A DNA stretch of 64,000 bases, taken from contig JBEKVV010000002.1 of the NCBI GenBank assembly GCA_049513715.1, positions 128,001 to 192,000 of the forward strand, read 5' to 3'. Source of the DNA: Candidatus Bathyarchaeia archaeon (lineage in GTDB: Archaea; Thermoproteota; Bathyarchaeia; 40CM-2-53-6). Position numbers: made by a program. The first letter of the stretch is position 1, and every line of letters begins with the position of its first letter. Positions 36,001 through 39,000 of the stretch are shown piece by piece.

Positions 36001-39000
36001 TTGTTGTGTTTGCTTCAATGGTGTTTCTTTAACTCGACTTGTGCCGCGTTGCGGCTCTGGTTCGTAGCTTGGCATCCACGTGTGAGTGCGCCAGCCGTAT
36101 TCTGAGATTTTCCTTCGTGAGAGCTTTACGTGAAGTTGTGAGGGTGCCGGAAAAACAAGGTTCTGATGACTCCTCCACCGATTCCTGTAGCAGATGAAAA
36201 GTATGCGAACAATGTTGCTATTGACAATCTGCCTTCTATCAGTGATTCTACCGATTTCGACTACGACTATGGTCTTGGCTCAAACCCATCGCCAAGCTTT
36301 GATCTTGTCCTCCGTCGAGAAGACTGATCCTTTCGATATGAGGAGCAATGTCGAATCAAGCTTGACGAGCATAGGCTACCAAGTAACTTACTTGCACGAC
36401 ACAGAGGTCACACTCGACGTTCTATTGAACCAGCTCGGCAATTATGATGTAGTGTTTTGGAGAACGGACGGCTACGCGAGGCTTGACCATGCAACCTACT
36501 TCTTTGTTGGAGAGTATAGCAGCCCAGCCGCGGTCGCCCCCTACGCAGCAGATCTCGCTACGGGAACGTTGGACAACTCACTTGGACTTCTTGGCATCAA
36601 CAGCAACTTTCTGCGCGCCCACCTTGGACCGAACTCCCTCAGCCGCATCAAATTGATGGTGCTGATAACGGGCAATCTGGGCGATTTCGCCAAGACAATG
36701 CTAAGTCTAGGTGTCACAGCAGTAGTAAACACATACGGCTACTTCGCGTTCACCATAGTTGACCCCGCAGTGGCTCAAGTCTTCTCCTACCTTGCACAGG
36801 GCTTAACTGTACGCCAATCAGTGATGAAGTTGCTGAACCCGTTCTACGCCTACCTTGTTGGGAGCGAAATCAACCAAGCCGAGTTTCCGCCGATCTGGTA
36901 CAGCGGAGATTCGACCATAACCATCTCGTAACAGCAAGACTAAGACAACTACCCTCCCAGCTTTTCTTTTTTCACGGCCGCGGAGCAGTGGTCCGCGGTT
37001 ATTTTTTAAGGCGCAGCAACATGGACGAACAGAGTGTTATTCCGCGGACTCACGTTGTGCCTACTCTTGAGCATTATCGTAGCAATCAGAATTAACACGC
37101 CATGAAATCTTTCGTACTTTGTGGAAAGAAAACATCGCTCAAATTCTACAAACGCCCACTCGAACCGTTCCCGGACGAGGGTAATGGCGTTTCAGACGTA
37201 ATAGGCACTTGAGCGGACTCGCCTAGGTTGAGCATCGAACCCTCGTTACTGGTTAGAAGGTGGATTGTCCACGACGAGTTCCCTTCAGGAAAAGTTACGG
37301 CCAGAGCCCGATTACGGTTACCGAGCCCTAGCCATGGGTTTTGGAGGAGCCGGCAATGATGCTTTGACCCACCTGATGGACGCAGGCGTCAAAGGGATTC
37401 ACTGCGTTGCCGCAGATACAGATCGGTATCATCTCCACATAACCAAGGCACATTCCAAGATCCTTTTGGATGCAGCGCCAGGAACTGATGGTGGGACGAG
37501 AGGGAATGTGGACGTCGGCAAGCAAGCCGCGATGGGTGCTCTTCCAAGGATCAAAAGCGCGGTGGACGGAGTGGACTTGGTTTTCATTCTTGCAGGCATG
37601 GGTGGCGGAACCGGAGGAGGGGCAGCCCCAGTGGCTGCGGAACTTGCCCGTGAAAGCGGTGCCCTTGTTGTAGGATTGGTGACGAAACCGTTCTTCCCTG
37701 AAAGAGTCGACTTGGCCGTGGATAGCCTTAGAGCTCTGCTGAGAACATGTGACACTGTAGTTCTAGTTGACAATCACGGCGCGGGGGCAGCATCGCATGC
37801 GCTACCCTTCCCGTTTGATCTGGATACTGCTGGGCAAACGACTTGTTCACTAGTATCATCGATTACCCGCAGCTTTCACAATCCGAGCAGCTTAAGCTCC
37901 GACATTAGCGATCTTCGAGAAATGCTGAGGCAAGGCGGACTAGCGAAGGCTGGTGTGAGCGACTGGTGCTCCTGCGGCGGCGTCGAAGAAGCGGCTCTGA
38001 CAGCGATTAGGGATATTGTTCCTCACTGCGATCTTGCAAAGGTCGATGGTGTTTTCCTCGGCATATTGGGTGATGGTGGTCTTCACGAATCAGACCTCGC
38101 TCCAACTCTGGAATTGGTTTCTCGGAGGATTAATCCTGACGCTGACTTTCTCTATGCGCATCATGTGGAACACGATGGGCTGGGGCTGACGAGAATCAGC
38201 CTTCTCGCCACGGGCGTTTCATTTCCGTACACTTGGGGTGGATACCGGCGCGTTCCGGCTGAGATCTTTGAGATGGAGCCAGAATCTGGCAACGATGACC
38301 GCCTCAGCATTAAACTAGAAATGCCCCAGCTCGAGGCGTTATTAGACTAAGTGAACTTGAACTTCAGCTTACGCAACTTGTTAACTGCTGACGTTGCATG
38401 GCCTTCGGGACGCACTCGACCCATTCTAATCGCGCCAAGCACATCTTTCACATCTCGACTTGTTGAATCCACGACCGTGTACGCGTCCCCAATTGATTGT
38501 GGTATGTGGGAATCGCTTCCACCCACTTGCGGGAGTCCTAACCTCCGCGCGTCCCTCTCAGCAAACCAGTTCGAAAGGTAAAACGAGAGCGCGTCCGCGT
38601 TCATGGTTTCAACCGCGTCCGGCATCACCTTCAATCGCGCCAGTTTAACACACTCACATACGGGGTCGTATGGGTGAGGAACAATTGCGATGCCCCCAAG
38701 TTCATGGATCCTCGTAATGGTTTCATCCGCCGTAAGCCCCGGTGGAACAGCTTCTCCAACCCCGAGTCCTATGACATGGCCGTCGCTGGTGCTCACTTCA
38801 ATACCGGGTAGAATAAGGGCGTCAACTTTCGGCGGGTCAAAGTTATCGTGCTCAGTGACGGCTACGCCGTCCAATCCTTTTCGTCTGATTATGCCCGGCA
38901 AGTCCTCAATTTTCGTGTGCGCATCCTTTGAGCGAATCGTGTGAACGTGCATGTCAATCTTCAGAAGTGGCATTATCCGACCTCACTTGACCGCGGGAAC

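What a model noticed while it worked through the whole genome (the two positions that open the first line are those of the whole stretch)
37265..38350. SepF outlives FtsZ: a decaying ftsZ here, gone from most of the genus
The single ftsZ (g01189) is divergent, with the T7 loop INVDFAD changed to SSSDISD. It is missing from most congeners, which still keep sepF (g01898, C3:272.7 kb) beside a full Cdv set and crenactin. This breaks the stated rule that archaeal SepF is absent where FtsZ is absent.
Evidence so far: Alignment to solved FtsZ. Tubulin family in 1 of 10 other genus genomes >=92% complete, and weak (E 1e-11 to 1e-25) in 9 of 9 from the other genera. SepF over the cut-off in 5 of 5 FtsZ-less genomes 96-100% complete; table counts SepF 18 and tubulin 3 of 22. 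PMC8178401 (passage, call 201) says SepF is absent from genomes without FtsZ.
(Added by a program. Inside this text positions count along the whole contig: contig position 128,001 is position 1 of the stretch shown here. "Call 12" and the like, gene names such as g00115 and contig names such as C1 are that model's own, and its searches are not shown. The text may have been shortened before it was handed on; [...] marks where a part breaks off. The agent that wrote the report below was given it as the finding of a first reader that could run no searches.)

Follow-up and report, generated by a model that had tools for sequence, protein, structure and literature searches.

The report
FtsZ shrunk to SepF-binding tail
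In relatives of this archaeon the cell-division protein FtsZ has not vanished but has been cut down to a 40-120-residue tail peptide that is still under selection and is predicted to grip its old partner SepF, which gives a view of how one division system is dismantled while another takes over.

Summary
The ORF is a real, intact, divergent FtsZ (T7 reads LSSDISD, both aspartates kept; full-length congener copies are under purifying selection, omega 0.10-0.16), beside SepF, a full Cdv set and crenactin. The claim that ftsZ is missing from most congeners is wrong. At the same chromosomal slot, of 22 congeners 4 are full-length, 5 lack the GTP-binding loops, 10 carry an intact 42-59-residue tail-only ORF, 1 a frameshifted one, 1 is cut by a contig end and 1 has a clean loss. 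The tail-only ORFs keep ribosome-binding site and start; their last 25 codons are under frame-specific purifying selection (omega 0.12-0.16). Tail-only or near tail-only genes, most behind cdrS (so FtsZ2), recur in five other Bathyarchaeia families. The tail is a tandem motif; a complex model puts one copy in each pocket of a SepF dimer (0.79, best control 0.02; a like complex is solved). SepF follows the tail, not the GTPase domain. The 'rule' already had exceptions in its paper's own supplement. Expression and function are untested. I found no earlier report in eight literature searches or in the scan's notes.

The parts
37265..38350 (+). Divergent full-length ftsZ (FtsZ2 lineage), 361 aa, TTG start
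   Evidence: AlphaFold model mean pLDDT 79, pTM 0.80, FtsZ fold TM 0.75
37256..37262 (+). Shine-Dalgarno-like GAAGGTG; the same element precedes the start of most full-length and tail-only orthologues
37601..37615 (+). T4 signature GGGTG (residues 113-117), kept here; lost in genus g5, family f8 and the N-truncated congeners
37892..37912 (+). T7 loop LSSDISD (residues 210-216) against INVDFAD; not conserved among the four full-length congeners
38231..38347 (+). C-terminal tail (residues 323-361), predicted disordered on its own; the part that survives in tail-only relatives
   Evidence: pLDDT <50
38264..38278 (+). Tail motif 1 (IFEME, residues 334-338); class consensus L-[YF]-[EDN]-[LM]-E
   Evidence: equivalent residues contact SepF copy 1 in the model
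38321..38335 (+). Tail motif 2 (MPQLE, residues 353-357), 14 residues after motif 1; class consensus L-[DY]-Q-[LMI]-E, often preceded by G (GLD/GID as in the archaeal FtsZ CTD)
   Evidence: equivalent residues contact SepF copy 2 in the model
35380..35691 (+). ThiS-family gene, left marker of the conserved slot
38347..38973 (-). PHP-domain gene, convergent, right marker of the slot (followed by metG 38983-40638)
36194..36931 (+). 245-aa ORF with hydrophobic N-terminus inserted between thiS and ftsZ in this genome; no family match; not part of the system as far as tested

Best explanation
Division in this group has passed to the Cdv (ESCRT-III) system (inferred from gene content). The FtsZ2 polymer became dispensable, so its GTPase body is lost in steps: catalytic T7 loop altered, GTP-binding loops lost, N-terminal truncation, in-frame internal deletion (states shown). 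One function stayed under selection: the C-terminal tail, a tandem of two five-residue acidic-hydrophobic motifs 14 residues apart (shown). The tail-only genes keep the old translation start, and in several families the old place behind cdrS, so they are probably expressed as microproteins (inferred). One peptide lies across one SepF dimer and fills both FtsZ pockets on strand beta3 (modelled). SepF here has no room for the N-terminal amphipathic helix of M. smithii SepF, so the pair is probably not a membrane anchor for a ring but a soluble complex (inferred). Most likely role: the peptide is an obligate ligand that stabilises or switches a SepF dimer which still has a polymer-independent job in division, plausibly through PRC-barrel proteins (CdpB-like or CdvA) (speculative). 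The window's gene is the least reduced state of this series: folded body, probably poor GTPase, same tail.
For: Slot states in 22 congeners. Selection: tail core omega 0.163 over 175 codons of 7 close pairs (p 3e-8 against 1), 0.121 in 4 non-degenerate pairs; other sense frames 1.9 and 4.3; identity at codon positions 0.66/0.80/0.38; family f15 minis 0.037 (5 pairs), f27 0.118 (2 pairs sharing one sequence). SD-like element plus TTG/GTG/ATG start and an upstream CAAATAT-like element shared with full-length M143. The 43-aa G045 ORF is on record as a called gene with the same start. Recurrence in families f15, f27, f12, f14, f19, mostly directly behind a CdrS-like gene, as are full-length copies with canonical T7; cdrS-ftsZ2 is the known operon (PMC7439475, passages). 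Complex model 0.79, best of 3 controls 0.02; mark reached by 116 of 157 solved and 2 of 215 mismatched pairs; runs agree in >=91% of contacts, partner pLDDT >=69; own alignments were used and a like complex is solved, so this shows likeness. Modelled pocket columns 81% conserved against 62% for the rest of the core in 28 SepF. In 301 class genomes: SepF+/tail+ 211, SepF+/tail- 55, SepF-/tail+ 9, SepF-/tail- 26; families f2 and f10 lack both although f10 has another tubulin-family gene. CdvA in 100 of 105 genomes of the order. In H. volcanii sepF is essential while both ftsZ can be deleted (PMC7617429, PMC8187382, passages).
Against: No expression data. G054 and M199 have lost the slot cleanly, and G054 keeps a SepF whose modelled pocket is unchanged. 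G048 has a 1-bp frameshift in the tail; M147, M149, M161 have degraded motif 1. SepF with neither tubulin nor tail found in G106 (100%, 20 contigs), G115, G127, G140, G208, G211, G299, G073, and in G074 outside the >=90% set. The 17 codons before the core evolve neutrally in g1 (omega 1.0). The tail profile finds nothing credible outside the class (1 chance hit in the non-class genomes of 251 searched), so SepF without FtsZ in Nitrososphaeria is not explained. Only SepF was tested as partner. The window's own motif 2 has lost the G-[LI]-D letters. One origin of all g1 tail-only forms is not rejected (AU p 0.13). No cdrS was found in G000.
Confidence: 0.6

Rival explanations
1. SepF has a role wholly independent of FtsZ; the tail is kept only as a cap that neutralises SepF's basic pockets (a buffer, not a regulator) and can be dropped.
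For: SepF core is about 90% identical across g1 whatever the ftsZ state, including G054 with a clean loss; apparent true orphans G106, G115; six SepF-only genomes in the supplement of PMC8178401; sepF essential where ftsZ is not.
Against: The tail is retained under strong selection in six families; SepF and tail are missing together in f2, f10 and 7 of 8 g36 genomes.
Confidence: 0.2
2. The tail is selected for binding some other protein (a PRC barrel, CdvA, the Vps4 MIT domain, a protease), and the SepF model is recalled from the solved M. smithii complex.
For: Only SepF was folded as partner; the tail is longer than the 13-residue M. smithii CTD; stand-alone PRC barrels exist in 5 of 5 genomes tested.
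Against: Both motifs land on beta3, the strand that binds the CTD in the crystal; motif 2 often reads GLD/GID; pocket residues are basic and conserved; SepF and tail co-occur.
Confidence: 0.12
3. The short ORFs are untranslated pseudogene remnants caught on the way to loss, preserved by a DNA or RNA constraint next to the convergent PHP gene; SepF is a true orphan (closest to the first reader).
For: Frameshift in G048, losses in G054 and M199, degenerate tails, neutral leader.
Against: Frame-specific omega well below 1 in three families, third-position turnover, conserved starts, no Rfam match in three loci; in f15 and f27 the neighbour is often not PHP; G051 has a second free-standing tail ORF far from the slot.
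Confidence: 0.06

Closest known systems
Archaeal FtsZ2 in the cdrS-ftsZ2 operon (Halobacterium, Haloferax; PMC7439475, passages)
   Same: Full-length class relatives sit directly behind a CdrS-like RHH gene, have canonical T7 and pass the TIGR00065 cut-off; the window's gene shares their tail and slot.
   Different: Here T7 is altered, cdrS is not found in G000, and most relatives encode only a truncated body or the tail.
M. smithii SepF-FtsZ CTD complex (PDB 7AL2; PMC8178401, section read)
   Same: Acidic-hydrophobic peptide extending strand beta3 of a SepF dimer; GID-like letters in motif 2.
   Different: Two motifs on one chain span both pockets in the model; the peptide is a free gene product; SepF has 5-25 residues before the core instead of 53 and no evident amphipathic helix.
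Nitrososphaeria (Thaumarchaeota): Cdv division with atypical FtsZ and SepF (PMC5797428, PMC11188069, passages; PMC8178401 supplement)
   Same: SepF and a non-canonical or uncounted FtsZ coexist with Cdv.
   Different: No tail-only gene described there, and the tail profile found none outside Bathyarchaeia.
CdpB1/CdpB2 PRC-barrel partners of SepF and the PRC barrel of CdvA (two bioRxiv preprints, passages)
   Same: Give SepF a known second partner class; stand-alone PRC barrels and CdvA are present here.
   Different: No binding to the Bathyarchaeia SepF was tested.

Membership tests
FtsZ/tubulin superfamily | Tubulin GTPase domain and two-domain fold | tested here: met
   Pfam over cut-off; model TM 0.75 to M. 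jannaschii FtsZ
FtsZ/tubulin superfamily | GGGTG signature (T4) | tested here: met
   residues 113-117; absent in g5, f8, N-truncated and tail-only relatives
Canonical division FtsZ (TIGR00065) | Equivalog score above 295 bits | tested here: not met
   158 bits; full-length relative G353 387 bits
Canonical division FtsZ (TIGR00065) | T7 loop NxDxxD | tested here: not met
   SSDISD after L210: Asn lost, both Asp kept; four congeners differ further
Canonical division FtsZ (TIGR00065) | GTP-dependent polymerisation and ring formation | not testable with these tools
   needs biochemistry and imaging
Archaeal FtsZ2 | Gene directly behind cdrS | tested here: inconclusive
   met in class relatives, full-length and mini; not met in G000; orthology rests on shared tail and PHP-metG synteny; no FtsZ1/FtsZ2 tree was built
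Archaeal FtsZ CTD (SepF ligand) | C-terminal GID-type motif | tested here: inconclusive
   GLD/GID in many tail-only and class sequences, EMP in the window's protein
Archaeal SepF | SepF core fold family | tested here: met
   PF04472 over cut-off; matches 3ZIE and 3ZIG
Archaeal SepF | N-terminal amphipathic membrane helix and linker | tested here: not met
   5-25 residues before beta1, stop-bounded at 6 in g2; best 11-residue hydrophobic moment <=0.52, mostly polar or proline-rich; no positive control computed
Cdv division system | cdvA, cdvB, cdvC(Vps4) cluster | tested here: met
   the Vps4 label is read from the sequence (AAA ATPase in the cluster), not from a family call
Cdv division system | Mid-cell ring that divides the cell | not testable with these tools
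   no imaging

The most novel reading that the evidence does not exclude
Bathyarchaeia have several times converted FtsZ2 into a bivalent SepF-clamping microprotein, still timed by the cdrS operon in many lineages, which hands the ancestral FtsZ cell-cycle signal to the ESCRT-III (Cdv) ring through SepF and PRC-barrel proteins: a living intermediate of the switch from FtsZ to ESCRT division.
Probability: 0.25. Interest if true: 0.93.

Novelty: new variant of a known kind. Interest (0 to 1): 0.82.

Why it matters
It shows a cytoskeletal GTPase reduced, repeatedly and through visible intermediates, to its linear binding motif as a separate gene. Family searches miss these ORFs, so presence/absence tables for archaeal division genes miscount Bathyarchaeia. 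It points to a polymer-independent function of the FtsZ tail and SepF, an open point since sepF is essential in Haloferax where both ftsZ genes are not, and makes it testable with a 40-residue peptide and a 100-residue protein. It also bears on how lineages move from FtsZ to ESCRT-III division.

Tried and rejected
Pfam PF00091 alone as a test of absence: misses all truncated and tail-only forms and some full-length ones (g5 7 of 10 by Pfam, 10 of 10 by clade profile). RNA: one run with share 0.08 for the G042 locus; its six contigs do not cover the mini ORF; uninformative. ESM Atlas holds the G281 mini protein but gives no usable look-alike. Genome-contig scan with the window's protein returned only 8 bacterial FtsZ, no names of relatives. 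Weak tail hits checked and rejected: G078 (a different 228-aa gene; so the SepF+/tubulin-/tail+ count of 45 is at most 44, and other hits near E 1e-3 may be chance too), G557 (inside a 1068-aa ORF), G212 (short frame made by an assembly gap in a full gene). Rfam: no match in three tail-only loci. cdrS-type hits in G106, G115, G127, G140 have no tail ORF behind them. No other protein of G000 ends in the two-motif pattern (the pattern as written also misses the window's own tail). AU test did not reject one origin of g1 tail-only forms. Own-gene omega could not be computed (nearest copy differs by one codon). Literature searches without a report of tail-only FtsZ; scan notes. Subscription papers, bioRxiv supplements and part 2 of 3 of the PMC8178401 table were not seen and could hold relevant rows.

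Full report
The gene. Window 37265-38350 is one open frame of 361 codons with a TTG start behind GAAGGTG. It matches Pfam Tubulin over the cut-off but reaches only 158 of the 295 bits of TIGR00065. The four full-length congeners differ further in T7, so catalysis is probably not what is conserved (inference). An AlphaFold model has the whole FtsZ fold (mean pLDDT 79, TM 0.75) with residues 323-361 disordered. It is the only tubulin-family match in G000. SepF, cdvA with three ESCRT-III-like genes and an AAA ATPase, a crenactin-like gene and two stand-alone PRC barrels are present. A congener's protein is labelled Bathyarchaeia by its source, agreeing with an earlier scan note.

But the neighbourhood thiS - ftsZ - PHP - metG is conserved across the order, and a profile from 28 FtsZ of the order found partial matches in 17 of 22 congeners. 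Reading the slot gave, for the 22: four full-length (G037, G051, G057, G058); five without recognisable GTP-binding loops (G049, G052, G044, G039, frames of 276-302 codons, and G055 cut by a contig start); ten intact tail-only ORFs of 42-59 codons (G056, G042, G038, G050, G047, G045, G041, G046, G053, G040); one with a 1-bp frameshift (G048); one contig that starts inside the tail (G043); one clean loss (G054). Of 80 metagenome loci of the PHP gene, those of genus-level identity show the same states, including degenerate tails (M147, M149, M161) and another loss (M199). Families f6 and f7 keep C-terminal-half forms with the tail (G071, G072, G075, G079, G077, G076); genus g5 and family f8 keep full length without the GGGTG signature.

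Are the short ORFs genes? They keep an AGGTG(A)-type element 4-8 bases before a TTG, GTG or ATG in most cases, as most full-length copies do, and an upstream CAAATAT-like element that full-length M143 shares. With a pooled pairwise codon model the last 25 codons have omega 0.163 (7 pairs, 175 codons, p 3e-8), 0.121 in the four non-degenerate pairs and 0.181 in the degenerate clade; the 17 codons before have 1.0; N-truncated bodies 0.35; full-length bodies 0.10-0.16. The shifted sense frames give 1.9 and 4.3, codon positions are 0.66, 0.80 and 0.38 identical, and the PHP gene of the same pairs has 0.07; one antisense frame gives 0.33, as expected from its register with the coding frame. The core was defined from the motif conserved in full-length proteins, which favours low omega somewhat. 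The 43-residue ORF of G045 is on record as a called hypothetical protein; 3 of 8 sequences looked up were in the collection. RNA data were uninformative.

How often? On a tree of flanking proteins (25 of the 62 rows, IQ-TREE) the tail-only label needs three changes, at least two by strongly supported branches, and full-length M143 lies inside the main tail clade; N-truncated forms are one clade with G054 as sister (FastTree of all rows). The AU test does not reject one origin (p 0.13). G051 carries, on the contig of its full-length gene, a second free-standing tail ORF that resembles the G053/G040 one. Across the class the recurrence is clearer. The tail profile matched 220 of 301 genomes. Of 20 loci that I picked (16 for short frames, 4 as full-length controls), 15 are short tail ORFs, one was an assembly artefact and four are full-length; seven more short ones were read later. 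They lie in families f15, f27, f12, f14 and f19. In f15, f27 and f14 they start in or just behind a CdrS-like gene, as do full-length copies with canonical T7; cdrS-ftsZ2 is the described operon (PMC7439475, passages), which makes this FtsZ2. G272 keeps the N-terminus with a decayed T1 loop joined in frame to the tail. Tail omega is 0.037 in f15 and 0.118 in f27. Single-contig genomes G266 and G327 have SepF and a tail match and no tubulin match; some other g49 genomes hold a different tubulin-family gene.

What does the tail bind? In 61 of 63 distinct tails a pattern search finds two motifs, L-[YF]-[EDN]-[LM]-E and L-[DY]-Q-[LMI]-E, 14 residues apart in 48. Archaeal FtsZ binds SepF by a GID-centred C-terminal peptide that extends strand beta3 (PMC8178401, section 8 read). 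A model of two G045 SepF cores with the G045 peptide scores 0.79 against a best control of 0.02; the mark was reached by 116 of 157 solved and 2 of 215 mismatched pairs, runs agree in at least 91% of contacts, partner pLDDT at least 69; motif 1 lies on residues 83-86 of one copy and motif 2 on 83-84 of the other. A like complex is solved and my own alignments were used, so this supports likeness and does not show binding. The contacted SepF columns are basic and more conserved than the rest (81% against 62%). SepF in this order has 5-25 residues before the core, against 53 with an amphipathic helix in M. smithii, so it is unlikely to be a membrane anchor.

Does SepF follow the tail? In 301 genomes: both 211, SepF only 55, tail only 9, neither 26; for Pfam tubulin 205, 61, 18, 17. 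Kin are not independent, so I give no test. Of the 61 with SepF and no tubulin, 45 had a tail match (one later shown false), three more have remnants seen directly (G043, G076, G077), five were found with a wider profile, and eight remain without (G106, G115, G127, G140, G208, G211, G299, G073). Families f2 and f10 lack SepF and tail together. So true orphans may exist but are few. Outside the class the tail was not found.

Mechanism. Shown: stepwise states, selection on the tail, tandem motif, co-occurrence, CdvA in 100 of 105 genomes of the order. Modelled: bivalent binding to SepF. Inferred: expression as a microprotein, division by Cdv, soluble SepF. Speculative: that the complex acts through PRC barrels; SepF binds CdpB1 in Haloferax and CdvA has a PRC barrel (two preprints, passages), and sepF is essential there while ftsZ1 and ftsZ2 are not (passages). 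I put 0.6 on the regulatory-ligand reading, 0.2 on a dispensable cap, 0.12 on another partner, 0.06 on dead remnants.

Novelty. Eight literature searches and the scan's notes gave no description of tail-only FtsZ; passages of PMC9723716 and PMC11188069 mention only non-canonical FtsZ-like proteins and extra CdvA in Bathyarchaeia. The parts are known, the architecture is not: a new variant of a known kind. The finding's headline is wrong in its letter, but what lies under it is stranger.

Noticed in passing
L275:1631-1852 (G051 C4, about 121 kb): A second, free-standing tail-only ORF in a genome that also has full-length ftsZ on the same contig; it resembles the G053/G040 slot peptide.
   Followed up: partly
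L098 and L103 (G046 C2 and C3): The gcvPB-thiS-mini-PHP segment occurs twice with a few substitutions; duplication or strain mixture in a bin with 10% contamination.
   Followed up: no
window 36194-36931: 245-aa ORF with hydrophobic N-terminus, no Pfam or NCBIfam match, inserted between thiS and ftsZ; one paralogue at C4:130202-131059 (37% identity).
   Followed up: partly
L016-L030 (family f10) and G069 C34: A different 456-469-aa tubulin-family protein with a C-terminal extension, next to cdvA in G093 and G100, in genomes without SepF.
   Followed up: no
genera g2, g3, g4: Two to seven CdvA-family matches per genome against one in g1 and g5.
   Followed up: no
L080:2465-2803 and L096:11275-11664: A homologue of the stand-alone PRC-barrel gene C3:123514-123903 lies next to the gcvP-thiS-ftsZ cluster in G063 and G075.
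   Followed up: no
genus g49: Many genomes have a weak tubulin-family match (E 1e-5 to 1e-6) or a second FtsZ-like gene (E about 1e-36) besides the mini gene; neither was examined.
   Followed up: no
L082-L085 and related N-truncated loci, between thiS stop and ORF start: A conserved non-coding stretch of about 90 bases, possibly a promoter or regulator site; start codons of these ORFs are uncertain (weak ribosome-binding matches).
   Followed up: no
window 32467-35363: Two genes read from sequence as glycine cleavage P-protein subunits (label recalled, no family call); absent from the slot in G052 and G044.
   Followed up: no
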